A stretch of DNA of 52,265 nucleotides from Proteromonas lacertae (lineage: Eukaryota): contig NGBS01000041.1 of NCBI GenBank assembly GCA_002245135.1, forward strand, positions 1 to 52,265, given 5' to 3'. Below are positions 2,127 to 31,100 of this stretch, piece by piece. The notes under the pieces were generated by a model. The model worked only from the letters and a program-made list of their open reading frames with translations, had not been told where the DNA came from and did no database searches. Position 1 is the first letter of the stretch. Every line of letters starts with the position of its first letter. The translations under genes were made by a program, and so were the position numbers.

Positions 2127-2179
2127 TTTTTAAAAACCAAAAAGATCAAACCTCAGCTTGATTTGAAAATTGCATTTCA

Positions 2180-8072: not shown

Positions 8073-8278
8073 ATACTTATTAAACCTTATATTGATTGAT
8101 TGTGTTGATTTGAACATCTCAAAAGAATTAGAAGATTCTATATGTCACATATATCCATAATAATACAGTAGAGTTAGACTTACTCAATATACACGTAAAA
8201 GAAGACTAATTTAAAAAAATAACTGATTTTGAACTTTGGGGATTTTTTTCACTAATTCAATTTATTCAATTCAACCTC

Positions 8279-9397
8279 ATGCATTTTTGTGTAAGTTGGC
8301 AAGTTCTTATTGTTATTCTATTTTATGGATCTCTATTTTTTATTTATCACATTAGCGTAGAAAAAGAAGAGGTTCGCAGCGGATTAGTAAATAGTAGCAA
8401 TTCAATCTATTATATATCTCAAAAATATTTCGATAAATATGATGCTGAGAGTAAAAATCGATGGAAGGATACGTCTGTTTGTCTGTTTGTTTCTTTATAT
8501 CACAAATCTCAAGGATACATATCAGCTGTTATGAATAACTATGATATATTTTGGCCATCCAATATTGGGAAGAAAGTAATACTATTGGACAAAGAGTCCG
8601 AGTATATGGAGTCATATATAACAAATAAGTGGGAAATTCATTATGAAGAATATAATGTAAATGGTGTTGTGAGAAGACAATACTCATCTTATATTGCTCA
8701 TAGATATTGTTCCCCTAACAAATTCATTGCTTTTATGGATTCTGATAGTATTTTTTCAATGAAAGTGGCAAAGTATATGTTATTTGATGAGAATAATAAA
8801 CCATACTTTCTGTATACGAAACAGATTAGATACAGAGAATGGAATCCATCAAAGTTGCTGAAGTTAATGTTAACTGAATGGGGAGATGGTATGATTACTT
8901 TTCCTGTGATAGTTTACACTGAACATATTGCTAGTTTATACAATTATCTTATCAAAATACATAATAATACACTAGAAAATATCATTGCTAAATATTATTC
9001 CAGTCAATTCTGTGTATTTTTAGAATATGTAAAACATTTTTATAAAAATGAATATAATTTCGCAGTGTATGAGGATAAGCCAATTCTAAGATGTGGTTTT
9101 CATGTTCCATATGCATATAATATCACCAAATTACAGATTCGAGATAAGGTGAAGTTATTCGATTTTAATGTTGTGATAAACACAATAACATATGATGGTT
9201 TATGTAGTATTTTTGTTGAGAAATATCCTCACAAATGTTCCAAGTACAATAGAGCTGTGTTTTATTATAGGTTCTATATAATAGATGACTTTAAACACTC
9301 ATTACCAGATTCATCTAAAAACGATATTTTGTTGTATAATCAATATAAAGACAGTATAATTACTACAGTTGATATGAAAACTGGAGGTAGATTGTAA
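8279..9397 (+). CDS. Putative type II membrane glycosyltransferase (GT-A fold-like), intronless
   Basis: N-terminal hydrophobic anchor (WQVLIVILFYGSLFFIY), a stem region, and a hydrophobic strand followed by DxD (FIAFMDSDSIF). Confidence 0.55.
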   Translation: MHFCVSWQVLIVILFYGSLFFIYHISVEKEEVRSGLVNSSNSIYYISQKYFDKYDAESKNRWKDTSVCLFVSLYHKSQGYISAVMNNYDIFWPSNIGKKVILLDKESEYMESYITNKWEIHYEEYNVNGVVRRQYSSYIAHRYCSPNKFIAFMDSDSIFSMKVAKYMLFDENNKPYFLYTKQIRYREWNPSKLLKLMLTEWGDGMITFPVIVYTEHIASLYNYLIKIHNNTLENIIAKYYSSQFCVFLEYVKHFYKNEYNFAVYEDKPILRCGFHVPYAYNITKLQIRDKVKLFDFNVVINTITYDGLCSIFVEKYPHKCSKYNRAVFYYRFYIIDDFKHSLPDSSKNDILLYNQYKDSIITTVDMKTGGRL

Positions 9398-9629: not shown

Positions 9630-11172
9630 ATGTTTTCTATCAATTCTTTCATAGACAATGCATTATTTTCACAATTTTCACAAAACATTGTTGTATTTTG
9701 ACAATTTTCTATTGAATAGATAAATGAAAGAAAAGAAAAGAGTGCTTGTGAAGTAGATTTGGTAGTAAAACATGAAAATGATATAGAAATGGTAAAAGTG
9801 TTAAACATTACTGGAATAAAAGAAAAAGTAATATTAAAATTCTTTGAAAATAGCTCAATGTTGAATGAGAGTTATTTATCCTTTATCTGTCCATGTAGAA
9901 TATTTCAGATAGATAATTACATTGATTATGCCATAATATCAAGAGGATATTATGATAATGATTTAGAAGGTGTTATTCAGAGTAAATCCATTTCTTATAG
10001 TCATATTTCTTCAATAACCATTTCATTGTGTGATGCATTGATGACATTAAGTGAATGTGAAGTAGTAGTGAGTAATTTGAAGAGTAGTAACATAATATGT
10101 GAAGAAGATTGTGATATAAAGTTATGTGATTTATATTTAGATACATTAAGAAAAAGAGAAGAAATGAGAATATATAATATATGCTTCAAAAGCCCAGAAG
10201 AGTTGAATGGATATGAAGTGAATGAGAAAAGTGTGATTTGGTCAATTGGTTGTATATTATATGAAATGATAAACAAGAAATTACCATTTAATGAAGATAA
10301 TAATATGTTTAAGACAATGAATAATATATTGAGATGTACATATAAAAAAGATATAATAAAAGATAAGGTAATGAAAGTGATGGTTGAAGGAATGTTGATA
10401 GTGAAGAATGAAGATAGAATGAGTTTAAAAGAGTTGAGAAAAGAAATGATAAAAATGAGTGTTGTACAAAGAGATGAAAATAACAATATGATAATATTGA
10501 AAGAAAGAAAAGAAATGCTATTCAATAATGATTATGGAACTGATATATTCACATTTAATATAAAAATTAACTACTATTTTCATACTGATAGAATAAAAAG
10601 TATAATATAATTATTATTATTTAAATAGAAATTCGAGATGATATAATAGAATTGTACAACAATAAACCAAATGAAAATATATTAGCAGTATTGTTGATAA
10701 TGAAATTTGGAACATTTGATAGATATTTTTCAGACAGATATGGTAGATATATAACCGATAAATTGATGTATCAATATAATCACAAGTGTGAAGAAGATAG
10801 AGAATGTTATTTAGATAAGAAGTTATTCAATTTTTATACTGATTGGTATGATAAAGAAAGAATTACTCTTGATTCAGCGTGTATATGTATGTGTGAAGAA
10901 GGAATTAATTTTGTATTCAAATTGTTGGGAATTATGAATGTTACAAAACTTTCATTTCGTATAATTCTTATCATTTTTAATTTGTTTTTAGATAGTTATT
11001 ACAATGCAATTGTTATTCCACTGCAATATCAGTCATTATTTGGAAGATATATTTCTCAATTATCGAATCTACAGGAGTTGTATTTATCAAAATGTGGTGC
11101 TACATATGATTTAATTGAAGAGTTGATGAAGTCAATTGAGTTGATGAAATTGAATCTTTTAGATCTTGGATG

Positions 11173-11230
<58 letters not shown>

Positions 11231-13080
11231 GTAATAATGAAATAGCTAATCCAATTGGTCCAAAAGGATTCAAACTGTTAGTTCCTCATTTACAGTTGTT
11301 AATCTGTAAAGACAATGTATTGAATCTTAAAAGAATGGATTTGAATGATGAATCAATGATATTATTATCAGAGGAATTATACAAATATCCGAATCTTAAG
11401 AAAATATGTATTAGAAAAAACCAAAATATTCATTCAAAAGGATTAAAATCATTATTCTCTAAATTTCCTATTTCAAAGGTGGAATTTGATTTTAATGGAA
11501 GTAAAGAATTGCTAATTGATAAAGATATTCCAGAATTAGTCAAATATATAAAGGATAGATATAAGAGGTTATATTTGAGTGATTTAGAAATGGGTGACAA
11601 GTTATTCAAGTCATTCATTTCTCTAAGATCATATGAATTTAAAGATATAAAATGGATTGATTTACAAAGTATAATATAATTAATTTCATATTGTTTAGAT
11701 AATAAACTAACCTTTAAAAGTATGGAATTATTAGCTAATAATATTTCTTCATTTTCAAGTCTTAAGACATTTTGGCTATATGGAAATGAGATAGGAGATT
11801 TAGGAATGAACATATTTTCTCCACATTTACATTTATTATCTGATGTGGATGATATTATTAATTGTAAAAGTATAATAATAATAATTATTATTATTTAATA
11901 TTGAATAGAAATGGGATTTTCTTCAACCGGATTTACATATTTACTGAAAGGAACAAAAACTACATTTGGTAAAATTAAAAAACTTAATGTTTCATACAAT
12001 AATATTGATTCGAAAGGGATAGAACATCTAAATTCTTTTTTAAAGAAAAAAAACAATATTGAAAGGATAATCATTCATAGTATATATATACTTATTTCGA
12101 TAATTGTTTTTTTAATAGATAATCCTATTGGTAATGTAGGACTTAAGTTATTGTTGGACAATTCTAAAATAGTAGTTATCGATGAAAAAATGAATTTGAG
12201 TAATATTTCAATAGATGATGAAGGTGTAAAATTATTAACAAATAAAATGAAATCACTTAAGCAATGTTACAGAATAGTGTTAAATGGGAATGATGTTAGT
12301 TTTAATGGATTAAAATCAATATGTGAAAAATCGTTAGAAAAAGAAAAATATCCGTTTATAGAAATGAAATCATTATCCTGGACAAAAGAGGAATTGGAAT
12401 ATTATGTGGATTATTGTATAAAAAAGGAATATGGAGGAGATTATGATTTTTCTAGTATAAATATTGTTTTATAATGAGATAGATCTAAACCTCAACGATT
12501 CGCATATAGCATTAATGAAACAGATTGATTATTGTGAAATTGATTTATCCAATAATAAGATTACTTCCAAAGGATTAAAAGAGTTATTAGAAAAAATAAA
12601 AGAAGATACTGTAGAATATATTTCAATATATAATAATAATGAAATTGGAGATGAAGGAGTAGAAAAAATATCTGAATATTTAGATAAGTTTATGAAGGTA
12701 GAAATGAATGATGATAATAGACAATCTAAATCATTAAATCTCTCCAGTATTTACTTTTTTTCTATTAAATTCGAATAGATATTGGAATGAGTGAAAAGGG
12801 ATTTAGAATGTTAATAAAAAAGAGAAGCATGTTTTATCCATTAAGAGAGATGTATTTAGAAGGAAATGAGTTTAATGAGAATATGTTGAAATTAATGAAA
12901 GATAACAAAGAAATTTTCAGTAATTTGGATATAATGTCAATAACATTGAAAGAGAATATTGATATGTCAGTATTAAAAGAGTTCTTACAATCATTTCGTG
13001 TAGTTGACATTATTAAATTGACTGGAATTTCTGAAGAACAAAAGAAAGATTTATCAACACAATTCTATAATATAGAGTAA
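9630..13080 (+). CDS. Multi-exon kinase-like (predicted pseudokinase) plus ribonuclease-inhibitor-type LRR protein
   Basis: The ATG at 9630 is in frame with ORF 9759 across a 27-nt intron (9693-9719). Kinase C-lobe motifs: NLKSSNI, KLCD, SPEE, IWSIGCILYEM. Following ORF pieces carry LxxLxLxxNxIxxxG repeats (NPIGPKG, NEIGDLG, NNIDSKG, NEIGDEG) and are linked by GTAT..TAG introns. Confidence 0.8.
11176..11226. repeat. (TA)n microsatellite inside an intron of the kinase-LRR gene
   Basis: About 25 TA units between a GTAT donor (~11172) and a ..AAATAG acceptor (~11245). Similar tracts at ~21350-21380, 23409-23428, 26593-26613, 44001-44028 and 44260-44273. Confidence 0.95.
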
Positions 13081-13155: not shown

Positions 13156-16100
13156 CTAACCCATCCTTGATGTTGAAGTATGTCTTCCAGACATTTGAGA
13201 TGATGATCTCATCATCGAATTACTAACACCAACTTCATAAAACAAATCAGGCATAGATATAGTGCATATACCAATATTTCCACAAACAAATACATCAGGT
13301 TTTACAGAAAACCTTCCTCTCGTAGCTCCTTTCCTTGCTAAACTTCTTGATCTCTTTGAATTGGCTGCTGATGATAGGCTTGAAGATCCACCAAATGTTG
13401 TACTTGCTTGAACTACATTCACCCATAAGTATGTTAACTTTGATGCAAATTGTAAAATTAAAGTTGCAAATGATCCTAATTCTACACCTAAACCTCTTAA
13501 CATTAATAATGTATCAGGTTGTTTCTCCATTAATACATTCAATGGAATTTCCAATATACCTAAAATAATCATCAACACAATTGTGGATGCTAAACTGATT
13601 GATTCATTAAACTCTGATGATGCTTTTCTTGTATCCCAAGCTAATTTAGCTCCCCATAAAAATAGTAATACAACTCCAACAATTTCAATATAAGTGAATA
13701 TATCATTGGCTGTGCATTCTCTAATGTAATAATCATCTAAATAATTGGAATAATCAACACTAAAAGTTTCAGTATATTCTGCTCTATCAACTAACCACCA
13801 AATCATCAAATATAATGCTTGAACTAATTCGATAATTGCTATAATTTTAACTAACATCATATTAGAAATTTTTACTCTTTGCAGATCTTTATTGTTGAAT
13901 AATTTATGAATTCTCCATGCTTTACAGAACAATATACTGAATAAGAAATCAACTGATAAAGCTAACCACCACACTCTCATTGCACAAACTACATCATTCG
14001 GATATAATGTAAATATCATACCACTAACACTTAGTAAAATCACACCTAAAAGTGTATAATACAAAAACAATGGTGAAGCACTTCTTATAACTTTAGCACT
14101 TTTATAAATATAGATTATTGCACCAACAGAAACTGCACAAATCATTACAACAATCATAAATACAATTACAGTCCATTGTAAAGCAGAGTTAAACTCATAT
14201 AGAACGATATTCTTACCTAAATTACAATCTTCATCACTCATATATGTCAATTTTGCATCAAATGAAGCAGCTCTTCCTTGATTTGGAAATACTTGAATAC
14301 GATTTGTTCCTGACATTCTAAATATGTAAATCTGTCTCTTTGCATGATTGTTATATTGCATTGTCATTGTACCACCTGGACCATCATAACTCACATATTT
14401 CATACTTAATCTTACATATCTATAATCAGGCCATTCATCATTAGAATCACCATTACTTTTAGCATATTCTACTGCAGCTTTCCATAAGTATATTGAACTG
14501 TAACTTGTTTCTAATATTTCACCTAATGTAATTGCATTCTGATATATCTGTTGAACTGATGTTGAAAATGCTCCAGCAGTTGTACTTTTTATCACAGCAT
14601 TATAACTTGAAACAATATATGAACCAGATAAAGATTCAATGTTTGATGAAGATACATCATGAGCATCATAATTCAACAAGAATAATGTTATTGAATCTCT
14701 ATTTATGGTAGTAGCAGAGAAGTATTCTGTTAAGAATTTCTCTTGTTCACCTCCAGCAAATAAATCAATTATTATAAATCTTTCAGCTTTAGAAAACATT
14801 TCTTCTAATACATTAATAATTGTTGATAATTCAACTGGATTATATGGTGAAAATAATTGTGATCCTAAGAAATTAAAACCTTTCTCTTTAGCTACCCTTT
14901 CTACTACTTCAGACATTATTACTGTTGAATTTTCACTATTGCCTATTACCATTAAATCTAATAATCCCATCGAATGTATATAATCTAATGTTGGTTCTGT
15001 CTTTTGATTGATTGTTAATCCTGTTGTAACAATATATGTACTACATACAAAACCATCATCTCTTCCTAAATAATCAAACAATACATTACTATTAATGGCT
15101 TCTAAATATCTTTCTGCTTCAGTTCTACATTTAGGTGACATACAACCAAATATCATTTTCAAATTCTCAGTGTCAGATATGATTGTTCTTAATTGGGAAT
15201 ATACTTTGGAAGACATTACAAAATAATGATCTGGAATTAATAATTTACCTAAAATACCATTTCCATCATTAATTTCATCAATTGCTATATTCTGAATCAA
15301 TAAATTATACTTCTCACTTTGAGTACCAATATCACTTTCATGAATAAATGCAACATGAATTGGATTATTGTTATGCATTGGACCAATTTTATTATTTGTA
15401 TTATCACCAGTATTACCATTATCCTGCAATTGTCTCCTTGTATTACTAAGTTCATTATTCCAATCACAAGTATATCCTCTCAAATCTCCTTCCCATTGAT
15501 TATACAGAATTGGCTCAATGTATGAAGTAGGCATCCAATTAATACTGATTACTCTATTGTTGATTTTACCACTATAAACTATTCTTTTCATGAAATTATT
15601 CTCTTTTAATTCAACTGATGTTGAGGGTGTATCTACATAATAATCATATAACAGTGCAAAAGTGGATATATCAAAACTATTAGCATCTGTTATGAGTGTT
15701 TTCCAATATTGCATTAAAGAATAGGCTGATTCATATTCTGATCTTATATATTTATTACTGCCAATATTAATGTGAATTTCTTCATTAAATATGGAAGATA
15801 AATATGGAACTGAAAAACTATTAGTTTCAGAATTACCAACTGATTCAAAATATGATCCAATTACTTCATTTCCATTCAAACATTCTGTATCTACTTCATA
15901 TAATATATTCTCATCAAACATCGTTGCTAAAACAACCCAATTTGGAGGAAGCATTCCAAATGAACATAAATCTTTATATAATGATATATATTTCTCTTTT
16001 GAATCTAATGTAGCTATTATATAACCACCACTATTAGCTATTGATAATCTTTGGATTTGTTGAGCATTTGAACTATCGTCATATAGAATATTACCCATCA

Positions 16101-19100
16101 ACAACAAATTCAAATTACCCATTCGAGATGATATAAATTCATTTACTGTTGTTGTTAAATTACTTGATGAATAGATAAGAACCATTGATGTTGCTTCTTC
16201 CATCGCTTTTCTAATTGCACTTTCAGCTATTTGAGATGGTAATAATTGAGCAGATATAACATGGGATGGACAAGTTATACTATAAGTATAACCACAGAAA
16301 AAGAAATATTCAGATCTTCCATTCATATAATTGGCTATATAATCATAATGATCAGGATTAACACCTCCAAATATATATTTTATTCCATCTGTATCAAATG
16401 CTTTCTTTAATTGAATAGCATAATTGTTTGGATCTGAAGCAATATCATACACTTTATAATTCAAATAATATCCTAATACTTTATCTTGATTATTCATATA
16501 GATAATAGCTGATAAAATTGCATCAAAAACTGAACTTTCACTTTCTCTTAATACTCCAGTAAATGATAAAATAATACCAATCACATATGTATTAACAACA
16601 ATACCATTTCCAATTGTAATATCATCAAAATTACATATTTTATAATCACCACCATTTAAATCATTACCAAATGCATCTGGAGTATGCATATATTGAGTAT
16701 AATGTAATAATTGATTCTCACCATTTTCATCTATATATGAATCTGAAATTGTTCTTGTTAAATAATTATTAACACCAAATTTCACTTCACCTTCTGGACT
16801 AGTAAACAATAAAGTATCCATTTTCTTTCTAACTATTTGTGGATCAAATGTCTTTGAATCTTCTACAGAATTTGCCCAAATTAAAACACTGGAATATAAA
16901 GCAGATGTAATATCAGTAACAGTGGTTGTTGCTTTATTTATTCTTGCATTCATCTTATCTGCAAATGCATCATTCTCTTCAAAATCATCACTTGATCTAT
17001 ATGCTTCAAACACTTCATAATTTCTATATTCTGATAGATAAATTGTACTGGTTGGTTCTATTACTATTAATCTGACTCTTGGCTCAGTTAAATTATAATA
17101 TGTCAAATTCTTTTCTATAAAATCAAAACCATCAAAGAAACCTCTGTAGATAATTGCAACATTTGTAACATTCTTATCATACCATTCTTTAATCTTATTT
17201 GCCACATTTTCATCAACACTACTAAAGTAAGTATTTGGCACTTTTGTTTCATCTAATAGTGTTTTGATATATTCACCACTATCTTCAAAATAACTATCAC
17301 CAGCTACAATTAATATTTCATTATATAATCTATTTCGAACTGCATTTATCAATGGTTTATCCAAAGATATATGATGACATGCAATCATAACATTTTCATT
17401 ACAATAACCTAGATTTTGTTGGAAGAAATGGAATAACATAACATTATTTTCCTTCAATAAATTTTGAACAGAATTTCTACATAGTTCATTTCCTACGAAG
17501 AATATAGCTGGTGGTTTATAATTATTCACATAATTTGTTAATAAACTAACACATTCATCTAGATTTGATTGTGTATCAGTAATTTCTGCTTTAATATAAT
17601 AACCATTAACACCACCTTTATTATTGTTTAAATCATTCACAGCTAATTTAAAAGCATCAACAGAACCTAATGCAGCTTCAGATAATACCCCAGTGATTGA
17701 AGCAGTTAAAGATAGTCTAACAGCATTAACTTTATTCCTTTCTTGTTCAACACCTGGAGACCAATTACACTTTATTCCATAATTATCAACAATATTCCAA
17801 TTCCAAGCCATTGGAGCTTGAAGATTATAATTTGATGATGCTATGGTTATATCAGTGCCATCAGCGTTATATCTTGCTATAAACATGGGTAAATAAGGAT
17901 AATGGGTTTCACTTTGTTGTATTTTACCAGTTCCATCTGTAATTTCAGTAGTCATTAATTGTGTTCGAATAACTGGAATATTTAACTCACCTACATCTTC
18001 TGCAGCTTGTGCAAAGAATTTTACAGCACCATAAGCAGCATTAGTACCTGAAGTTGGTTTTGTAATATCTGTATAATCAGAGGATGCACTTTTAAAATCA
18101 GTATTAGCTGTTGAAGTAATATCATAAAAGTAACTACTCAATATATAAACATTAGCTCTTAAATTTGCATCAAATATTTCATAATGTTCAATTTCAGATA
18201 ATACATCAACGATTGGATAGTGTGTTGGATCAATTCCTAAATTATTATAAGTTCTTAAAAATGTCTGTAAATCCTGTTGATCATCAATAGCAATCACAAT
18301 AACTCCACCTGTAGGTAAATCATTTTTTGTAATGGAGACTAATAAATCTGTGCTTACAGCAACAGCATCATTAACTTCAATATTATTCTTTACAACAAAT
18401 AAACCACTTGCTTCATATTCAATCATTTCTGCTAATAAACGTGAATCATCAGCTTGAGTTCTAACTAATACCAAATTCTTATCAACTGATAGTGTAATTA
18501 AATATTCCAATACCTGTGCAACATATTGATTTGGAGCTGGACCAATGTAGTAAGTATATTTATCACATTGTTCACCAACAGATTTTCTTGGATAGAAATA
18601 AATAGCATCATATGGTTTAGCATATGGTTCTAATATATCTCTACAATCAGTATCATAACATCCAATAACGACAGATACTAAAGGATCAGAGAATAAATCT
18701 TCAGCTAATCCATCAATTAATGAAGCATCAGATGCATAATCCTTAATGACTGCTACAGGGATTAATCCAACTATTCCTCCTTGATCTAAGATCTGTTCTA
18801 ACGCCATTACAGCACCATAAATCACAGGTCTATGAACTTCAGCTAATGAACCAGTAGTGGAGAAAAATAAACCAATTTTGACAACTGTCGATGGAATTAA
18901 TTGGAAGTTTTCAGCATCACATTTCTTCATATTAATAGCTTCACGATAAATTGAAAAGAATGGATAATTCTTTACATTTGTACTTGATTGATATACTGTA
19001 GCTGCATTAACATTACCATCATCACTCTCAACTCCTTGCTGAATTAAGATTGGATTAGAAATATGATTATTTGTAGCAAATATAATTTTACCAATTGGAG

Positions 19101-21346
19101 TAACAGTTGTGGTTGTATAGAAATATTTTCTTAATAAAGTAACATTGTTTTCACTCTTTGCTAATTTCATTAAATTTTCAGCAACTAATCCCATAGAATA
19201 ACCTCTTGCTATTTCACCAGTAAAAATATCCAAATAAGTAAACTTCCTTTTTATTTCTTCAATAGATGAATCGATGATTCTTTTAACCTCAGTATCTTTA
19301 GCTAAAAAATCAAAAGTAAACATCGCATAATGACCTTTCATAGCAGTTCCAAGATCTGAAAACTGTTTATAATTCAAATTTTTACTAAGTGTTGGATAAT
19401 CTTCACTAGACATTCCTGCATCTTTCATTTGATTCAGTAACAATTTAGCAGATTCACCTTCTAATACAGAGAAAATCAAAGCTCCATCTGGTGCAGCTAT
19501 TTTAATAATATCAACAATAGATGACATATCATCATTTTCAGGTGGAACAGTGAATGTATAATCAAAAGAAACAGAATATTGACTTAATTCGTTTGAAATA
19601 ATTTGTGAGAATTTAGTGGCATAATCAGATGTAGTATACACTAATATTAATTGACCTTTAGAATGACTGATCAACCAAGGGTATAAGATATAGAATGTAT
19701 AAGATGGAAAACCAAAATATAGACTATTATATTGACATTCATCACCTTCATAATCTCTTAAATAGAATAACAATGCATTTACTTCCATTGCAACTTTACT
19801 CAAAGCTTTTCTGATTGGAGTAGTTGAAGCAACAAAGAATAAATTAATATCTAAATCCTTATTCACTTCTCTCATCTTTTTAGCTGCATATTGTGGATCA
19901 TTACCATCAGTCATCACATGCATTAATATCTTCTTACCTAAAATACCATCATGATTTTGGTTTATTTCAGTAAAAACAGTAAACATTGAAGCTAAAAACT
20001 GTATTCCTTCCTCTAATTGATAAACCATCTTTGGTAAGAAAATACCAATAAAAAAGGATGGTTTTATTAAGCCTTCCCCTTCATTATCTTTCCAATTACA
20101 ATACTTATATTCATCAAGATTTAATTTCAAATGATAAGTATCTGTTGACCAAGCTTGAGTCACAGGAGTTAAGTATTTCAAACTTCCATCTTCTAATATT
20201 TCACCAATTGATAAACTATCAATCATATGATTTCCACTATCTATACTAAATGTCCCTAAAGTTGTTTCTATTGTTGTTTTATATATTTGATTCTTAATTT
20301 CCTCAATTTGTGTTGTAGAAGCATCATTCAATACTTGAAGTATAAAAGTAGTTGAAACAACATTCAAAACATCATACAAATTAGGATAATAATCGCTTCC
20401 ACCAACATAATGAGCATTTTCTAAAAATTTAGTCGTCAATTCAGATTTATCATCAATAAAAGGAGTACCAACTCTTACTCCAACTCCATAACCTTTAGTA
20501 TATTGTATATGCGTATCATCAAATAAATACACTTCATATTCATCCATACAGGCTCTTCCTTCTAAATTATTGATTTTACACACCTTTTCATCGAATTTCT
20601 GTAAGAAATAATTAACTGCTTCATGTTGAAGTAAGACTATGATATTCTTTGACAAATCCAATCTATTTCTAATCTCTATAATTTTATCATTTATATCTTT
20701 CTCATAATTATCTTCATTTATTGGTGCTTTATATACAATTGAAGAACCTAAACCATCAAATATCGATTCTAACAATGTAACACGAGATTTATAATATTCA
20801 TTATCATTATATATCAATAATGGTGTAGCTATTTTATAATATAACAAACGCATTGAAAGTGGGAAGATTTCTTGATAAGGTGATAATGAAGTATACATTC
20901 TATATAATAATAATAAAAATAAAATAGATTAATTTATACATATTCTTAATACATTCACCTCCTGGATTAATTCCTGTATAAAACAATATAGAATCAATTG
21001 AGTTTAATGAACTTGCCATATCGGATTTAACTTTCGCATTACATCCACCAATTAATAATTCAAACCCTCTAACTTTCAGATTTACTACTAAACCAGCAGC
21101 TTTATCTGAATTAGCAGGACAATCATATAATTCATATCTTATTAAAGTTCTTTTTATACCTCCTTCACTATTATACTTTTCAATTTCTCCTACACTTTGT
21201 TGATAATCAAAAAAAGATCGGAACTTTGTAATATCATTCAAATTCAATATAAATGCAATACCTATGTAAGGAGTTTCTTGTTTAATTTTTGGGGGAGTAA
21301 GTGAATAATCTGAAGTTAAGAATTGATCATTATGCAACTATATAAA

Positions 21347-21385
<39 letters not shown>

Positions 21386-24300
21386 CTTCACTATAATATG
21401 GCATTGCTGTAATAGGCACATCTAAATGAGCAACAATTGGTTGGTCATATTGTTCATATAACAACAAATACGGATATACATTAATATAATTCGAAGAAGC
21501 AATAGATAAAGTACCAACAGGACAGTCAACAGTGTTTTGATAAAAGAATGATTTAATTACAGAAGGTGATCTATCAGGAGATGCAGTCAAAGCAGCTTTC
21601 ATGAATAAAAATGAATTATACAATGCCATACTAGCATCATCTAGCAATTCTAATGGATCTCCTTTATATGTCTTAACTGTATTAACTAAAGCAGAATTCA
21701 ATAGATTAGTAATCAATGGAGAATATGAACCATAGAAATACTTATCATAAAACACTGAAATATCTTCAGCGTTCAAATAAACTCGAATTGTTAAGTCCAT
21801 TATTACTACAGGATGTAATTCTTTAGTAAAACCTAATCGTTTATATTCAGTCAAAAAATCTTCAGTTTCTAAGTCAATGAATAGAATAAAGAAAGAATAT
21901 TTGGTTTTATCTACAGTAACATTTAAGAATTCAGTATAATTGTTATATTCATGAACATCAATTGATTTTATTGGTTTTTTTGATATAAATTTTGTAAATG
22001 CTTGAAAATATTTAAACATATTGTTCGTTATTCTATTCAATAATAAATATATGATATATTTATACACTGTAGAACTATCATATAAAACATAATAATCCAA
22101 AGTTCTGCCAATAAAATAATTAAATGGAATAGTAAAGAGTTGATTACTTACTGCATTCATTATGATGATATTTGGATAATCAATTTCACCACCACTGATG
22201 AAGATGGAGAATAACAGTTTCTCATATTTCACTAACAAATCACTTATTGCCATTCTTTCATCTTCATCAACTGTTCCTGCTAAGAATAAAACATCTTCAT
22301 CTTCCAACATTGGGATTATTTGTACAGCTAAATCAGATGCATTATTTGCGATCCAGGAAATTGTATATGGATCAAATGTCCTACCATTAATTCCTCCTTC
22401 TAAATTGATTAATTCTAAAATCAATTGGAATGTATCAACAGTTACTAAATCAATTTTTAAATTCAAATTGAAAACTAAACCAACTTTGAAAGTTGGCATT
22501 TCACTTTCTACCATCTCATTTCCTACAAAATTACATATTTTATAAGTTTCTTTGTATGGTAATGACTCAGCTACAAATGTTGGTTTATATACAATATCAT
22601 ATGCTTTTCCTTCACCATCAAGCTATAGAAATAAATAAAAAATATAATATAATATAATATATACTCTAAATATTTGTATTTCACCTCTTGCTAAACCATT
22701 TGAATATATTTCATATCTTCCATACGCTTTATTTTCTAATGCTGTGTGATACATATATTCTCTATATAGCGAAGGAGCAGTAGAAGATGATGATAATATC
22801 GAATCACTCAATAATTGCATTATATTATATACATATGCCATTGTTGAAACAATAGATACATTATATCCAGCTAATTCAGTTAAACTATTTCTATATTCTA
22901 ATATATCATCAGTTGTAGGTTCCATTTCATTACTGCTGTGATCCATAAACATAACATCTTCACAGTATTGAACACCAGTATCATGTACAGTCAATTGATC
23001 TAAATTGAAGTTAACAACATCATATCCATTTGATTTAGTCACATTTTTCCTATACATTGCTTTCATTAAAGATGGTAAATAATCAGATTCTGCTGTGATT
23101 ATTATAATTGTTTTATTTCTATCATCATATTTTATTAGTAATTCAGAGGCTGTTCTATTTGCTTCAATCTCTGTATCATTGTTTATATTATCTTCGACAA
23201 TTATACTTCCATCTATTTTCTGTTCAATGAAATAATTTTTGATTAAAGTTCTTGTATTACCACCAAATCTATTGTAATAAATAAATAAAATGTAAAATAT
23301 TATACTGTTGTTTACTACCTATTAAAGCAATTGAATCATAACTGTTTCTACGAATATATCTGAATAATTCTTTAATATATAAAGTATTTACAAAATTTCC
23401 CTATTAAATATATATATATATATATATACGAATATAATATCAGATTTACAAGTTCCAGCTTCAGTTGGGCCAACATAGAATATTTCAGTGTCATATACAC
23501 GTAAACCATCATAAAAGAAAACTCGATCTTCTTCACTTGTAAATAGAAATATTGTTTTAGCTTCATTCTTATCAAATAATACTTTTATTTCTTCTAATAA
23601 TACTTCTCTTCCTCTTTGAATATTCATTAAAACGGGGAATAAAGTTTTCCCTAATAATGGCTTTTTCTCATTAAAATCATCTAATAAAAGAGCAGCGAAT
23701 TCAGTAATCACTTTTGATATGTATAGTTTCATATCTTGAATGAATATAATAGGTAAATAATCTATCACAGTTTCTCCATCTTCTATATTGATTGTAAAAT
23801 CACATGACTTTTCAACCATTTGTCCTTTCATTCCTAATGGTTCTAACGTCAAATCAGCAGCTATTTTATATGAATATGTCAATGTTTTACTTCCACTTTC
23901 TTTTCCTATATAAACAGTAGAAGTCATGAAATGATTAGCTAAAATTGCTAAATCTCCACCTGGTTTTTGAAAAAGAGTACCATATAAATACGTTAATAAT
24001 GTAGTGATTTTATTACTTGGAATATTCTCAGATACATAAGCTAACATATCAATTAAAGCAACACCAACTGCAGCTTGAGATTTGGATGGACTAGGACTAC
24101 TTGTTGTTATATAATCAGTGTAAAATGTCTTAAATTCTTTGGTTTTATTATCATCTAAATCATCATTATAAGATGTCAAGAATAAACTTCCTTTATTATC
24201 TGCAGCTATATAATTTGCATCAGCAACTAGTTCTTCATATGTTATTCCTCCTTCAAATAACAACAATGGACTTTTTTCACTATCGATTGGCTTTGCTTTT

Positions 24301-24971
24301 CTTTTAGCTACAAGTGCATTGTAATCTGTTGCCTTTGTTAGTAGTACTAATGTCACAACATTGTCTTCTGTAGCAGTGATGTTAGTTATATAACTATCCC
24401 AATCATCTGAAGTGAATGTGTCTTTGTCATGTAAATCAAATACAATTTCTGCACTATATAAATCTGCTAAATATTTTATTCTTTCATAATAGAACGGAGA
24501 ATATTTTGTTGATGCATTATCAAGTATAACTGCTAATTTACTTGCATAGTTCGATGTTACTACAAAAAAGCTTTGCTCAACAGAAGGTACTACAGAAATT
24601 CCATTTAATACATTCTTCTTACAGCTACCTTCTGCAAATTGATCACTACACCACGTAAGGACGTTATTGGCAGTTAAAAGTTTTACTAAATCATCATTCA
24701 AAAATGTATCACATCTACCATACGCTAAAACAAGCTCAGTATCTGCTATAGCATCCAAAAAAGTCTGATCGGTTAAATCTGAGCATACCAACTCTTTGAA
24801 ATCTATATCATTATTCAAATCTTGGTTTACTATATCTATATATTTCAGAAGTATTTTCAAATCTTCATCACCAGCAGTCTTAGTTAAGTAGCCAAATTTG
24901 AGAGAGTTTACACGCACGGATAAGAAAAAAACTATAATACATACTATACGAAAGTGCAAAAGATGATTCAT
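13156..24971 (-). CDS. Giant class C (7tm_3) GPCR-like receptor with signal peptide and nine tandem UrtA/AmiC-like type I periplasmic-binding (Venus flytrap) domains; ~3,861 aa, 6 introns
   Basis: Removing introns 23401-23429, 23269-23305, 22623-22664, 22033-22065, 21338-21386 and 20900-20939 (all GT..AG, 230 nt total) joins five listed ORFs into one 11,586-nt frame. The 7TM region ~13420-14190 has class C motifs (VIRSASPLF, FCKAWRIHKLF, TRKASSEFNES). Confidence 0.88.
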
Positions 24972-25235
24972 TTTAATTGATAATAATTCGTTTTAATTTG
25001 GCCGTTACACAATCATTTTTGATTTGATTTATCTTAATATGTATGCTATATATATTTAATATCTCAGTACAATATAATACGCATGTTATAGATAGTTAAG
25101 GAACTTTTACTCAACAGAATCAAATAAACTACATCTCAACTATGTCAGTAGTAATAAGGAGAAAAAAACATCTAACAAACATGCAATATTACTCATAAAT
25201 AAATATAATTATTCATAATCTTATCTAAACAGGTA

Positions 25236-25629
25236 TTATCCATGTTGATATATTAAGAAACCAATATTTGATATAAAAAATTGAAGAATTCTATAATAAT
25301 AATAACAATAATAAGTTTAAATACTTTGAAACTTCGTTTGTGACTGATGTACCATATGATTCTCCCACAATTACATGCCATGTTCCAGTATAAGTCTTAT
25401 CGAAATATTCTTTCAAAAACTTAGCTAATTGCCAATAATGTTGATACTCTCCTTTAATTAATGTAGCTACAGCGGTTGAAGCTTGGGCTACCGCATCATC
25501 TCTCATAGCATCTGTCACTTCAGAGTAAATTACACTGACTGCTCCTACTTTGATTTGTTTCTTCTTAGTTGGACTTCCAGCTGCAGATGCAGTTGCTGGT
25601 GGTGGGGCTGTAGGTGCTGCTGTGGACAT
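25236..25629 (-). CDS. Dynein light chain, LC8/DLC type 1 family
   Basis: LAKFLKEYFDKTYTGTWHVIVGESYGTSVTNE. An intron at ~25291-25324 is followed by exon ILQFFISNIGFLIYQHG*. Confidence 0.88.
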
Positions 25630-25711
25630 TATTATATATTATTATATGAAATAAGCAATAAAAAACAATTAATTTATATTTAAAACGACTATGGCTTGAA
25701 TAAGTTTGACA

Positions 25712-28043
25712 ATGTGTTTTTTGACTAAAACTAGCTTTATCTTTGTCTTTTTGTTGTATTTTAATTTAATATGTGGACTACAGTACTTAATTGTAGTAAC
25801 TCATGATAATGATACAATTTGTTACGATGATAAAGAAGAATGTGAATGGAGTATTATAAGTGAAGCTGCTGATAGTCCTGCCGATAGAATACCATTGAAT
25901 GTATATATTTATATATAATACATAGTTTTCCTTTCCACTGTATCAAGAAACGTTCAATCGACTATTTATAAGCCCTAATGGATATATTCAATTCTATCCT
26001 AGAGTATACTCATATACTAATGATATTATATAACATAGTTACAAAATGAAGGAAAGATTAGTTATAGAGAAGCTGGTATCGATAAAGGATCTTATGATAT
26101 GTCAATTGCAGGAATATTAACTGATTTAGATCCAATTTTATACGACTACAGTAATGTTTATTATTATTCTGATGATGAAAGATTTGAAGTTTTGTTTGAT
26201 AAGGTTTCTATTTTTAAAACTGAACCTGATAGTATAAATGTAAATTACACTTTCTCAATCTCATTATATCCAAATGGAGTTGTGCAAATAACATATCATG
26301 ATATACCAAAATATGAAGATGCTGTGGAATTATTGCCTGTTAATTTAAATATCGACTCATCTTATTATTTTTATTATTCTGGAATAATTGGTTTAAATTA
26401 TAATGATAATTATACAAAATCATATCAAAGAGATTATACTACCCATGAATATGGAATTAAGTATCATAAACAAATTGATTTAATTCCACAAAATTCATTT
26501 CATTCGAATAATACAATTTTATTATGTCCAATGCCAGAAAAGTTATGTATTACTCCATATTTTATTGATGTATTTGGTATATTTATTAATATTATATATA
26601 TATATATATATATAGAAGGTGGAGAAGTTCATATGACTGGAGATATAATGTCATGTGAAAATGATTTGGTATTTCGATGTGTATTAAATGTGTTTATGAT
26701 GCAAACAATGTTTGTTGAAGCAAAGTATTTTTTATCATTCTTTTATTATCTTAAATAGATATACAAATAATGAAATAATATGTAAAATTCCACCATTTAG
26801 TGAGTTTAAACTTGATATTACCAAATATAGTTATAACAATAAAACAATAGATGATGAAGAGAAGAAAAAGAGAATAAACGAACCAAATCCAATTTATATA
26901 TTACTAGAATATTTAGCAACGTATGAATCAATTGATCAATCAGAATACTTTTATTATACACTTAATAGTCCATTAAAGGCTGTATTTATTGATTTTGATG
27001 ATAAAGAAGAGAATTATACATCCACTGCATGTGATGATACAGATGTAAATGTATGTGATAGTTGTGGAGAATGTGGTGGAAAGAATGAATGTATGATTTG
27101 TGATAATAAAACACTGTATTATACTAAATGTGAAGATAATTGCACTAGCTCTGAAGAATTTTATGATGGTGAGTGTGTTAAATATGATGAGATGTTTGAT
27201 TGTCTTGGTGAATATGATGGATCTGGAGTTGTATCAAAAAATAGTGCAGGAAATGGAATAGTATGTTGTCTTAAAGAAATAGATTGTGCTAATGTATGTA
27301 AAGGAGTTGCTGAAATTGATGATTGTGGAAATTGTGTGGGAGGTACAACAGGTAAAACAACAGAAGATTTTTTAGATTGTGATGCAGTATGTAATGGTCC
27401 AAATAAACCACCATGTTTTTCAAATATCGTGTATAATGACAGTGATATTGTGATTCAACATGAAATAACAGATGAACCTTTTAATGATACAATTATACTT
27501 TATTCTGCATTTGTTAATGGCACTGCTGCTGTTAGGTTTACAAGGGCATTTGTATATCCACAAATGCCTTATTATCCCAAAATTGAGGTATATGTAATAA
27601 ATAATGGGTCAGAACATTTAATTAGCCAATTTTATGATAATAAAGCACCATATTTACTCTCAAATAGTACAATTTACCTCAAAATTAAGGCACTTACTCA
27701 AAAGCTCAATACATATTCACCAAAATCAGTGAATAAACACAAAATAACCCTTAATTATAGACCAATCTTCAGTAATGACGAATATACCATGACATTTGAT
27801 TTGTATATAACATACAATCATTGTGAACGAAGAAAGGGTTATGAGCAATGCTATTTACCTGGATGTTTCTTTTGTATAGGGAATGGTGGATTTAATGTTG
27901 CAACAGAAACAAAGATGATCAATGGAGTATGTGTTGATGGGAATGTCTCAGTATGCCATGGAATGATAAACAAATCCGATGATGGATTTATGTTTGTTTT
28001 TTGTAATTTGTGGTTATTTGTGATAGTTATATTTATTTTATAA
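25712..28043 (+). CDS. Secreted/cell-surface protein: PLXDC/NIDO-like domain, Cys-rich DCxGxC repeats, PSI-like segment, hydrophobic C-terminal tail
   Basis: Signal peptide. Spliced sequence IPLNFSFPLYQETFNRLFISPNGYIQF..IAGILTDLDP..FSISLYPNGVVQITYHDIP, then DCANVCKG..DDCGNCVGG..DCDAVCNG. A hydrophobic stretch runs to the stop. Introns include 25901-25925 and 26004-26038. Confidence 0.7.
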
Positions 28044-28166: not shown

Positions 28167-31100
28167 ATGTCTACATTAGTCAATTGTTCTTTTAAAGATA
28201 AAAAGTACAAAATAAAGCTAGAAAAGAATGGAGTTACATCAAAGAATGCTATTATAGCTATTTCTGTATTGATGTCATTTATTAAGTATTAGAAAAAAAT
28301 AGAATTACCACCAGCGCGTTTATCTATTAAATTGGATGGGTCAGAAGATATTCTAAAGTTTGATAATGCATCTCTAGTCATTTCACCCAAAAGTGTTTTC
28401 AAAGTAGAAGAAAAAACACCTGAAGTAATAGAATGCAAAATGAAGATAATTGATGGTGATAATATACAAGAAATTGAAAGTGATACAGATTTAACAGTTG
28501 AAGACTTGAAATCAAGTGTTGATCTACATGAATTATGCAAAATATCTTGTTATGGAATAATTTTAGAGGATGATGCTAATTTGAAAGACTATATTTGTTC
28601 ATCTGAAGTAGATTTAGTTGTTATGTATTCTTCATCATTAGGCCAAAGCCTAACTGCACCGTCAATACCTATTCTTCAACAAGTAACTGAACAACAACCA
28701 CAACTTCCATTACCTAATCTTTCACCATCTCCTTATTTATCACCAGTAGCAATATCTCAAACACAACCGTTACAACAACAACCAATAACATATAATCCTC
28801 TTGCACAACAACAATATGTATTACAAACACAACCATTACAACAAGCTAATATACCAATACAACAGAATAATCCGTCAAAGCCAGTACAAGCTGAACAAAT
28901 AAAACAACAATCATTGGAAGAACCATTATTAAAACAATCAACAACAACAAATTCCGGGAATATATTAAATCCAGAAGAATCATTCGAAGAAATGGATCAA
29001 AGTGGAAAAGATCATTTTGATTTCATCACTTCACATAATAACTATAACAAAATAGTAATAAATCCAAAAGAAAAAGAAGAAGAAGAAGAAGAAAATAATG
29101 AGTGTTTTAAGAATGAAAATGGATTAATTATCTATCCATATCAATCAACTTCATTTATAATTCAATATGTTGATGATGATAATATCAAATCTGTTTGTTT
29201 AAAGAGAATCTCAATTCGTCAAGATAAAAACATATCTCCTTCTTTACCATCTTCATTAATCCATGGATTAGAGTCACTAGTGAATGATTCAAAATTATTA
29301 TTTTGTGATGAAGATGAACATGATGGTAGTGCATTCTTTCTTCCATTTATACCAACTACAAAAAGTAAAAAACACGTTTATAACAAAGTTCCAAAACATA
29401 TTTATTTCTTTAAAATATCTAATGTTAAAGATCATAAAATCTCAATTAATTATAAAACTAGTGTAGAATGTAAAACTGATATTCTTATTGTCCACTCTGA
29501 TAAACCAGAATTCACATGTTATGATGAATATGATAAAATATGTTATATCTGTAAACCATATAAGAAAGTAACATCTGTTAAAAATAATCCAATTGCTGCA
29601 ATGACTAAAAATGCTATGACTAGATTAGGTTTTATTGTTGAAGCAATTGTTTCTAACTTCCCTTTATTAATAGAAGGAAAGACATCCAGTGCAAAGACAT
29701 TTTCTGTCGAACAAGTTTGTAGAAATGGTCAGTTACCTATTATTAGATATAACTTTAGTCCATCTTCAACAATTGATGAATTAATCGGAAATATAATTAT
29801 TGAAACTGTCAATAATCAACCAAAAATACATTTCAAACTTGGTCCATTTTCACAAGCTTTTATTGAAGGTAAAATACTACTATTAGATGAATTATCATTA
29901 GCAAATCCTGAGGTTATACAAAGTATGATGAGTATTTTAGATTCTCATGAATTATATATTGATGAAATTGGTAATGGTTACTGTAAATACGAAATTAATC
30001 CAAACTTTAGGATTATTGCAACTCAGAATCCAGCTGGTTCTGTTTATAAAAGAACAAAATTAGATGATAACATGCTATCTCATTTTAGATTTATAGATTC
30101 TGATGCTTTTCCAGAAATTACTGATGAAGAATTAAAAGAGATTTTACATAATTTCAAATCAATTAGTCAATTCAATCTTCCTCTCCTAATTGAAGCTCAT
30201 CAAAAAGCAGTAAGAGAAAATCCTGATCATATTTACACTTTAAGAGATTGTTTAAGAGTAAAAACCATGTCTGAACATTGTGATTTTAAAGATTCAATTC
30301 CATTAGTATATAGTAATGAATTAGTGAAAAGTAAAGATAAAAAAGAAATAGAATATCAATCAAATTATCAATTGAATCCAACTACATTTAATGATCTTTG
30401 TTATAATATAAATAACATTTTGAAAAGTGGAAATCATATTATTATCTCTGCAGATGATGAATTTACTGTAAGAAAGTATTTATATGCATATTTAAACTGC
30501 TATAATAAAGAAAGTCTAAATAATGTTATTCACTGTACAAGTAATACAACAATTGAGAATTTGGTAGGTGTTTATCAGATTAGTAAATCGAAAGATAAAT
30601 GTGAACCAATATGGGTTGATTCTGCATTAATGAACAGCATTATAAATGGAAATATTTGTGTTTTACAACATTTAGATAATATGAAATCAAACATTATTGA
30701 AAGATTGAATAGTTTGTTAGAAATAAATCCAAGTGAGAAAGATGGTGTAATTCATAAGATTAGATTTGATGAAAGAGTTGAATGTCCAGAATTGATAATT
30801 CATCCAAATTTTAGAATTATTTGTACAGTGTCAAATCATCATTTATACCAAAAATTCTCACCAGCTTTGTTAAATCGTTTTATTCAGATTGAATTACCAT
30901 TTGATATGTCTAATAGTTATAGTAGATTAAATGATGATATATATTTTGAAATGATTAAATCATTTTGTGATAGTTATTATCACGATGAACCAGAAAAAGA
31001 AAAAATAGAGCAAGAAATAATGAATCATTTTCTAAATGATGAAACTCCATTAACTTGTTATGAAACAGTTAATATTAGAAAGAATTTAATGAAAGAAATA

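What the first reader, a model, noticed from the sequence alone, without database searches (positions are those of the whole stretch)
13156..24971. Giant class C GPCR with nine tandem Venus-flytrap ligand-binding domains
Seen: five ORFs splice cleanly through six canonical short introns into one ~3,861-aa protein. It has a signal peptide, nine ~380-420-aa repeats (starts near 24905, 23757, 22491, 21271, 20056, 18885, 17724, 16588, 15361), a 7TM domain with class C motifs and a Ser/Arg-rich tail. Known: characterised class C GPCRs (mGluR, GABA-B, CaSR) carry one flytrap domain per chain. Inference: this is a multiplexed nutrient/metabolite sensor with an array of diverged binding pockets on a single signalling module, an architecture I do not recognise as described.
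Basis: partly seen in the sequence, partly recalled or inferred. Interest (0 to 1): 0.92.

Follow-up and report, generated by a model that had tools for sequence, protein, structure and literature searches.

The report
Receptor with nine urea-binder-derived flytraps
A gene of a microbial eukaryote is predicted to encode a giant cell-surface receptor in which nine tandem copies of a bacterial urea-binding domain sit on one G-protein-receptor membrane module; here the urea contacts are lost, but a relative keeps them, so this undescribed family likely senses urea or related nitrogen compounds.

Summary
The architecture is real. One uninterrupted 2,580-codon frame already joins about 5.7 periplasmic-binding-protein repeats to a class C 7TM. 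Six AT-rich GT-AG introns extend it to 3,861 aa. That splice form scores best of 14 frame-keeping alternatives and is colinear end to end with an unbroken 3,886-aa homolog; no RNA was available. All nine repeats are homologous. The gene belongs to a family: 24 of 151 relatives carry two or more such repeats plus a 7TM, including Capsaspora CAOG_05347 (about three repeats). One nine-repeat relative keeps all eight urea-contact residues in five repeats. In the window protein no repeat keeps more than two. Across its AT-rich relatives only repeat 5 (perhaps 1 and 2) has a conserved pocket, with acids replacing amides. So 'nine working pockets' is unproven; one or two sensing pockets on a stalk of variable repeats fits better. 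G-protein coupling, dimerisation and ligand are untested. Ten literature searches found no description. New variant of a known kind; interest 0.78.

The parts
13156..24971 (-). Gene for a predicted 3,861-aa class C-type 7TM receptor with nine UrtA-type repeats (7 exons)
24908..24971 (-). Predicted signal peptide (residues 1-22)
   Evidence: hydropathy; homologs P0002 and P0037 begin at the same place with hydrophobic ends
23771..24911 (-). Repeat 1 (most diverged type I binding-protein domain)
   Evidence: 84 bits on family profile without window sequence; 42.9 bits leave-position-out; Atlas 0.96 to bacterial Peripla_BP_6 clusters
22508..23765 (-). Repeat 2 (spans introns 1-3); pocket pattern resembles repeat 5
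21289..22499 (-). Repeat 3 (spans introns 4 and 5); lacks both cysteines of the conserved pair
20073..21274 (-). Repeat 4 (spans intron 6)
18903..20064 (-). Repeat 5: the conserved, acid-substituted pocket (Y1660, D1663, E1665, E1761, N1789); likely sensing site
17739..18891 (-). Repeat 6, best sequence match to UrtA/AmiC
   Evidence: PDB 7S6E E 1.5e-18, AmiC 1PEA E 2.4e-17
16605..17730 (-). Repeat 7
15438..16596 (-). Repeat 8
   Evidence: AlphaFold model, Z 44.1, rmsd 3.4 over 381 residues to UrtA 8HIC
14196..15369 (-). Repeat 9 (membrane-proximal), followed directly by the 7TM with no nine-cysteine domain
   Evidence: Z 42.8 to urea-binding protein 8TG1, 41.7 to AmiC; no NCD3G hit
13404..14187 (-). 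Class C 7TM domain (seven predicted helices, residues 3519-3780), GABA-B-like
13156..13403 (-). Ser-rich cytoplasmic tail with a short motif shared with P0002 and P0023, and stop codon
23401..23429 (-). Intron 1 (29 nt), predicted
23269..23305 (-). Intron 2 (37 nt), predicted
22623..22664 (-). Intron 3 (42 nt), predicted
22033..22065 (-). Intron 4 (33 nt, in frame and without a stop), predicted
   Evidence: removal raises homolog scores in all 7 pairs of models
21338..21386 (-). Intron 5 (49 nt), predicted
20900..20939 (-). Intron 6 (40 nt), predicted

Best explanation
The gene is predicted to encode one class C-type GPCR whose ectodomain is nine tandem domains homologous to bacterial UrtA urea-binding proteins, and it likely works as a nitrogen-compound sensor with one or two live pockets (repeat 5, perhaps 2) on a stalk of repeats whose pockets vary. 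Inferred history: a UrtA-like domain joined a GABA-B-like 7TM and multiplied; relatives such as P0024 would still bind urea at five or six sites. In the window's lineage the urea contacts are gone, and repeat 5 has acids where UrtA has the amides that hold urea (Q144 to D, N246 to E, E146 kept), which would suit a cationic ligand such as an amine, amidine/guanidine or ammonium. Inferred mechanism: ligand closes the flytrap, the motion passes along closely packed, disulfide-clasped repeats to the 7TM, which would open its TM3-TM6 lock and activate a G protein.
For: Shown in sequence: Peripla_BP_5 (7 stretches) and 7tm_3 in one unbroken frame; unbroken 3,886-aa homolog P0002, 31% identical over residues 7-3856, with 9 Peripla_BP_5 stretches plus 7tm_3. 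UrtA ancestry: PDB sequence hits are UrtA and AmiC; the only NCBIfam hits are the two urea ABC binder models; top structural matches of repeats 8 and 9 are UrtA, a urea binder and AmiC, Z 41-44, above LivJ-type proteins (38 or less) and mGlu8 (33). Pocket: the eight UrtA residues (PMC10392092, passages read) are complete in 79 of 80 bacterial homologs, 5 of 9 repeats of P0024 and 1 of 3 of P0039, and 0 of 139 repeats of the AT-rich group (at most 4 of 8). Repeat 5 pocket identity 0.51 vs 0.25 overall in 12 relatives, p 0.003 (0.027 after 9 tests); E146 in 12 of 12, D for Q144 in 10 of 12, E/D for N246 in 9 of 12. The membrane-proximal repeat is degenerate even in P0024 and P0039. Cys pair covaries: 85 both, 3 neither, 1 single among 89 scored repeats; 30 of 80 bacterial UrtA have both. 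Model of repeats 8-9 plus 7TM: pLDDT 88.5, pTM 0.81. TM3 and ECL2 cysteines and TM6 Glu invariant in 13 aligned family members, TM3 Lys in 12.
Against: No transcript, ligand or G-protein evidence. The conserved Y-x-x-D-Y-E-G-x-E-C stretch of repeat 5 lies beside the disulfide cysteine and may be kept for structure; W120 is Ser in the window protein and Y190 is not conserved. Groups for repeats 1-3 hold only 3 sequences each and repeat 4 only 5, so those tests are weak. Variable pockets in repeats 6-9 fit paralog-specific ligands as well as decay. The TM7 PK motif reads SK in the window protein. The 7TM tree rejects one clade of array carriers (p-AU 0.0038) unless a single-ANF receptor (P0078) is added after seeing the tree (p-AU 0.187). 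Repeat positions of P0024 do not map onto those of the window, so the shared count of nine may be convergent.
Confidence: 0.55

Rival explanations
1. Multiplexed sensor: most of the nine pockets bind different small solutes and each can drive the one 7TM.
For: Repeats are 21 bits or less alike pairwise yet fixed by position: all nine positions form supported groups in a tree of 27 repeats, and 101 of 113 AT-rich repeats best match the same position. Both modelled repeats keep a full flytrap fold. Each window repeat shows a different pocket set.
Against: Pocket columns of repeats 6-9 are less conserved than the domain average across 16-24 relatives. No precedent was found for signal passing through eight intervening domains.
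Confidence: 0.22
2. The array binds no small ligand any more; it is a long rigid surface stalk for adhesion, for binding a macromolecule or for mechanosensing, on a 7TM that may be constitutively active or a co-receptor (as GABA-B2 is).
For: No window repeat keeps more than 2 of 8 urea residues; 7TM best matches GABA-B2; other class C 7TMs among the hits carry structural repeats such as TIG and LRR.
Against: Pocket conservation in repeat 5 and a similar pattern in repeat 2; intact urea pockets in P0024 and P0039.
Confidence: 0.18
3. The upstream frames (repeats 1 to part of 4) are a separate gene or are spliced differently, so the receptor has fewer than nine repeats.
For: No RNA evidence; 14 frame-keeping splice forms exist; many database relatives are shorter (2-7 repeats).
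Against: P0002 is a single unbroken reading frame colinear across all six junctions; P0037 starts at the same N-terminus and has nine repeats; the shorter relatives mostly begin in mid-repeat, as exon-bounded gene calls would. At least 5.7 repeats plus the 7TM need no splicing.
Confidence: 0.05

Closest known systems
GABA-B receptors (GABBR1/GABBR2), class C GPCR
   Same: Best sequence match of the 7TM (E 1.8e-15) and best Foldseek match of repeat 9 plus 7TM; flytrap joined to the 7TM with no nine-cysteine domain; TM3/ECL2 cysteines, TM3 Lys, TM6 Glu.
   Different: GABA-B has one ANF-type flytrap per chain; this protein has nine UrtA-type domains. Domain arrangement differs (whole-chain rmsd about 26 A). 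Dimerisation and coiled coil not tested.
UrtA urea ABC substrate-binding protein (TIGR03407; PDB 8HIC, 7S6E) and AmiC (1PEA)
   Same: Fold (Z 41-44), GxEC motif and C-terminal Cys-Asp/Asn-Trp tail seen in cyanobacterial-type UrtA.
   Different: Fused ninefold to a eukaryotic 7TM; urea-contact residues not kept; summed score 427.9 below the 492.75 cut-off.
Non-animal class C GPCRs with bacterial-type binding domains (gut fungi SBP type II; Dictyostelium Bmp; chytrid OpuAC; diatom PBP1)
   Same: Same principle of a class C 7TM recruiting a bacterial solute-binding domain (PMC5168858, PMC3251606, PMC3727952, PMC3971589, PMC10445921; keyword passages read).
   Different: The passages read name no UrtA/Peripla_BP_5 domain and no long tandem array; longest N-termini given are 1,600-1,667 aa against about 3,500 here.
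Trypanosome receptor adenylate cyclases (and bacterial BvgS)
   Same: Tandem flytraps on one chain: two in most trypanosome cyclases (PMC6027212, passages read); two in BvgS (recalled).
   Different: Two domains, not nine; one transmembrane helix and an enzyme output rather than a 7TM.
Capsaspora owczarzaki CAOG_05347 (XP_004347032.2)
   Same: Only named member found: Peripla_BP_5/TIGR03407 stretches plus 7tm_3.
   Different: About three insert-rich repeats (5 profile stretches), degenerate pockets; annotated only as hypothetical/GPCR family 3.

Membership tests
Class C (glutamate) GPCR | 7tm_3 domain above the Pfam cut-off | tested here: met
   132 bits vs 33.5, profile 3-251 of 251
Class C (glutamate) GPCR | Seven membrane helices, N-terminus outside | tested here: met
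   Seven long helices in the AlphaFold model at pLDDT mostly 85-95; topology inferred from the signal peptide
Class C (glutamate) GPCR | TM3-ECL2 cysteine pair; TM3 Lys/Arg and TM6 Glu of the ionic lock | tested here: met
   C3586, C3676, K3607, R3610, E3713; motif list from PMC3727952 passages
Class C (glutamate) GPCR | PK motif at the end of TM7 | tested here: inconclusive
   Window reads F-A-S-K; PK is present in 5 of 13 aligned family members
Class C (glutamate) GPCR | Extracellular bilobed type I binding-protein (flytrap) domain | tested here: met
   Nine copies; two modelled with Z over 40 to type I binders
Class C (glutamate) GPCR | Obligate dimer | not tested
Class C (glutamate) GPCR | Couples to a heterotrimeric G protein | not testable with these tools
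   No genome is held for this window
mGluR/CaSR/T1R subfamily | One ANF flytrap followed by the nine-cysteine NCD3G domain | tested here: not met
   No NCD3G hit; one cysteine in the linker
GABA-B subfamily | One ANF-type flytrap per chain | tested here: not met
   Nine repeats; Peripla_BP_5 469 bits vs ANF_receptor 68 bits on the last exon
GABA-B subfamily | GABA-binding residues and C-terminal coiled coil | not tested
   No GBR2_CC hit at E 0.01; no dedicated test
UrtA urea-binding proteins | UrtA/AmiC fold and sequence signature | tested here: met
UrtA urea-binding proteins | W120, S122, Y141, Q144, E146, Y190, N246, S274 (PMC10392092) | tested here: not met
   At most 2 of 8 in any window repeat; 8 of 8 in five repeats of relative P0024
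UrtA urea-binding proteins | TIGR03407 cut-off; stand-alone subunit of an ABC importer | tested here: not met
   427.9 vs 492.75 bits on the last exon; fused to a 7TM, no ABC genes among 22 window frames scanned

The most novel reading that the evidence does not exclude
An unrecognised family of eukaryotic urea/nitrogen-sensing GPCRs built from arrays of up to nine captured bacterial UrtA domains, spread from Capsaspora to at least two unnamed protist lineages: P0024 is a multivalent urea receptor with five or six intact sites, and the window's lineage has expanded the family and retuned the array to cationic nitrogen ligands, passing the signal along a chain of flytraps rather than through the single-flytrap dimer switch of animal class C receptors.
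Probability: 0.35. Interest if true: 0.9.

Novelty: new variant of a known kind. Interest (0 to 1): 0.78.

Why it matters
Characterised class C GPCRs signal by closing one flytrap per chain inside a dimer. A receptor with nine flytraps in series asks how, and from how far, a ligand event can reach a 7TM, and it is directly testable domain by domain because UrtA-type domains express as soluble proteins. The family gives a specific ligand prediction, rare for orphan protist GPCRs: the relative P0024 keeps the full urea pocket in five repeats, making it a candidate eukaryotic urea GPCR, and the window protein shows the same pocket rebuilt with acids. It is also a clear case of a second, independent recruitment of a bacterial type I binding protein to a class C 7TM, and a natural panel of UrtA variants for biosensor work.

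Tried and rejected
No whole genome is held, so G proteins, urease or urea transporters could not be sought. Sequencing runs: no RNA holder listed. Word-index search with repeat 6 alone found 0 of 4,578 candidates at E 0.001. Single-sequence AlphaFold of repeat 6 was unusable (pLDDT 37.5). Metagenome scan with repeat 9 plus 7TM: 0 of 40 pattern matches confirmed; scan with a 7TM alignment gave 9 loci, 0 of 9 with UrtA-type repeats. Lineage of the organism: the neighbouring UTP10 gene gave only 2 unnamed relatives; a recalled Blastocystis polyadenylation motif occurs 8 times against 4.6 expected, 14 of 100 shuffles reaching 8, so no lineage is claimed. A cyanobacterial donor was considered (best pairwise scores) but not accepted: one of two search patterns selects for the cysteine-bearing type, 34 of 64 parts of the collection were scanned, and the 22 bacterial rows form their own side of the tree. 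Position-by-position orthology between the window array and P0024 was not found. Earlier scan findings: nothing returned by words, sequence or place. Rejected: assembly or repeat artefact (repeats share 21 bits or less; independent homologs have the same order); animal-type ANF flytraps; bacterial origin of the window itself (spliceosomal introns, midasin, UTP10, dynein light chain neighbours).
Full report
Observation. The window is AT-rich (GC 0.21-0.32) eukaryotic DNA: its neighbours encode UTP10, midasin, a dynein light chain, a ubiquitin hydrolase and a kinase (22 frames scanned). Five long minus-strand frames fill 13156-24992. The last one alone (2,580 codons, no splicing needed) has 7 Peripla_BP_5 stretches (469 bits) and a full 7tm_3 domain (132 bits). 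Six GT-AG introns of 29-49 nt with GC 0.06-0.12 give a 3,861-aa protein. The strongest outside support is P0002, a database protein of 3,886 aa called as one unbroken frame, which aligns over residues 7-3856 at 31% identity, through all six junctions, and has 9 Peripla_BP_5 stretches plus 7tm_3. Whether P0002 comes from RNA or from an intron-less gene is unknown. No RNA run was listed for the window (see Tried and rejected).

Nine repeats. The repeats barely match one another directly (21 bits or less), but each scores 43-151 bits on a profile built from the other eight positions, against at most 6.8 for 50 shuffles, and a family profile without window sequence finds exactly nine domains of 84-283 bits. 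The weakest, repeat 1, is independently placed with bacterial Peripla_BP_6 clusters by the Atlas (0.96). In a tree of 27 repeats from four proteins every position forms its own supported group, and 101 of 113 repeats of AT-rich relatives best match the same position counted from the C-terminal end, so the array is old and ordered within this lineage.

What the repeats are. They are UrtA/AmiC-type, not the ANF-type flytrap of animal receptors. Repeat 6 matches 7 PDB sequences, led by three cyanobacterial UrtA and AmiC. NCBIfam gives only the two urea-binder models. An AlphaFold model of repeats 8-9 plus the 7TM from a 40-row alignment (pLDDT 88.5, pTM 0.81) matches UrtA 8HIC at Z 44.1 (rmsd 3.4, 381 residues), the urea binder 8TG1 at 42.8 and AmiC at 41.7, above branched-chain amino acid binders (38 or less) and mGlu8 (33) (a re-ranking of Foldseek's top 1,000, not an open search). 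A cysteine pair (GxEC loop and C-terminal tail) covaries: 85 repeats have both, 3 neither, 1 only one, of 89 scored (membrane-proximal repeats and gapped rows left out), and 30 of 80 bacterial UrtA have both; a disulfide is inferred.

The 7TM. Its best sequence and fold matches are GABA-B2/B1. The model has seven helices. The TM3 and ECL2 cysteines and the TM6 Glu are invariant in 13 aligned family members and the TM3 Lys is in 12; the TM7 PK motif is SK here. No nine-cysteine domain is present.

The family. A full HMMER search with repeat 9 plus the 7TM gave 4,384 proteins at E 0.001; the best 150 were read. Of these plus P0002 (151), 45 carry at least one repeat, 31 at least two, 24 at least two plus a 7TM, and 4 have eight or nine profile stretches (P0002, P0024, P0037, P0047). 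Most are unnamed assemblies with AT-rich amino-acid bias like the window's, and many begin in mid-repeat or end in intron-like sequence, so their true repeat counts are lower bounds. A second group lacks that bias: P0024 (3,745 aa, 9 repeats, first one cut short), P0039, three fragments and the one named member, Capsaspora owczarzaki CAOG_05347 (about three repeats). Of 40 further hits scanned, 39 chosen as lacking repeats carry other ectodomains (ANF, LRR, TIG, Kelch, Bmp, Cache) or none recognised. All 55 eukaryotic repeats in a 77-row tree fall on one side against 22 bacterial UrtA (SH-aLRT 99; eight proteins sampled), which allows but does not show one capture. Against a simple history: the 35-row 7TM tree rejects one clade for 13 array carriers (p-AU 0.0038), because a single-ANF receptor, P0078, nests with P0024; adding it afterwards removes the rejection (0.187). 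P0024's repeats do not map by position onto the window's, so the two nine-fold arrays may have expanded separately.

Ligand. The eight residues conserved around urea in UrtA (PMC10392092, keyword passages) are complete in 79 of 80 bacterial homologs, in 5 of 9 repeats of P0024 (6 of 6 alignable in the cut first repeat) and in 1 of 3 of P0039, but in 0 of 139 repeats of the AT-rich group, where the best is 4 of 8; the window's best is 2 of 8. Testing pocket columns against all columns by position (relatives kept only if their best match was the same position, score 30 or more, length 320 or more): repeat 5, 0.51 vs 0.25, p 0.003, n 12; repeats 6-9, 0.13-0.19 vs 0.21-0.25, p 0.80-0.97, n 16-24; repeats 1 and 2, p 0.029 and 0.021, n 3; repeats 3 and 4 not significant. 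Repeat 5 keeps Y141 and E146 and has D for Q144 (10 of 12) and E/D for N246 (9 of 12); Y190 is not kept and W120 is Ser in the window. The membrane-proximal repeat is degenerate even in P0024 and P0039.

How it most likely works (inferred unless stated). Shown: architecture, homology, residue patterns. Predicted: fold of repeats 8-9 and the 7TM. Inferred: the ancestral receptor bound urea at several sites; in this lineage repeat 5 (perhaps 2) binds a cationic nitrogen compound, the membrane-side repeats act mainly as a stalk and transducer, and closure is relayed to the 7TM and a G protein (0.55). Rivals: a true multiplexed sensor (0.22), a ligand-free structural or adhesive stalk (0.18), a shorter gene (0.05). 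Dimerisation and G-protein coupling were not tested.

Comparison with what is known. It works like a class C GPCR and meets the sequence and fold criteria tested, but is not a member of the mGluR/CaSR/T1R or GABA-B subfamilies by ectodomain, and its repeats are not UrtA by pocket or cut-off. Bacterial-type binding domains on class C 7TMs are known in gut fungi, chytrids, Dictyostelium and diatoms (PMC5168858, PMC3251606, PMC3727952, PMC3971589, PMC10445921, PMC8687355; keyword passages only), and two flytraps in series are known from trypanosome adenylate cyclases (PMC6027212, passages) and BvgS (recalled). An Entamoeba flytrap protein lacks a 7TM (PMC12965686, abstract and outline). The 2025 survey of GPCRs in animal relatives does not use the words periplasmic, PBP, Venus flytrap or urea in its main text (PMC12716839); only one of its supplements was held and it lacked the Capsaspora identifiers. 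Ten full-text searches returned no description of a UrtA-type or many-flytrap GPCR; subscription papers and the architecture supplements of PMC3971589 and PMC12716839 were not seen and could list the Capsaspora protein.

Verdict. Real feature, confirmed in architecture, with the interpretation sharpened from 'nine diverged pockets' to 'UrtA-derived array with a urea-binding ancestry and one conserved, acid-substituted pocket'. New variant of a known kind; interest 0.78.

Noticed in passing
P0024 (database protein): 3,745-aa relative with nine UrtA repeats (TIGR03407 2,996 bits) and a 7tm_3; five repeats keep all eight urea-contact residues. A better first test object than the window gene for a eukaryotic urea GPCR.
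   Followed up: partly
P0044 = Capsaspora owczarzaki CAOG_05347: Named, culturable organism with a family member of about three insert-rich UrtA-type repeats plus 7tm_3, annotated only as hypothetical.
   Followed up: partly
window 23771-24911 (repeat 1): Cysteines stand at the W120 and Y141 pocket positions in all three full-length members; they could bridge or seal the pocket.
   Followed up: no
window 10625-13080 (+): Intron-split leucine-rich-repeat gene (weak LRR_6 hit) ends 75 bases from the receptor's stop codon, tail to tail.
   Followed up: no
window 25291-25638 (-): Dynein light chain gene about 250-300 bases upstream of the receptor start, with an AT-rich intron of the same style.
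   Followed up: partly
window 28293-42586 (+) and 2162-8072 (+): Midasin (AAA_5 x5, VWA) and UTP10/HEATR1, both ribosome-biogenesis genes; UTP10 has only 2 unnamed relatives in the word-index search, so the organism has no close named relative there.
   Followed up: partly
window 26039-28043 (+): Cysteine-rich, likely surface protein with a hydrophobic C-terminal end and no Pfam hit at E 0.01.
   Followed up: no
window 8210-9397 (+): 395-codon frame with an N-terminal hydrophobic segment and a D-x-D motif, glycosyltransferase-like by eye; no Pfam hit.
   Followed up: no
P0111, P0152, P0063, P0100, P0068: Unnamed class C 7TMs with 7-11 TIG repeats, Kelch propellers (one with Bmp) or LRR arrays as ectodomains.
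   Followed up: no
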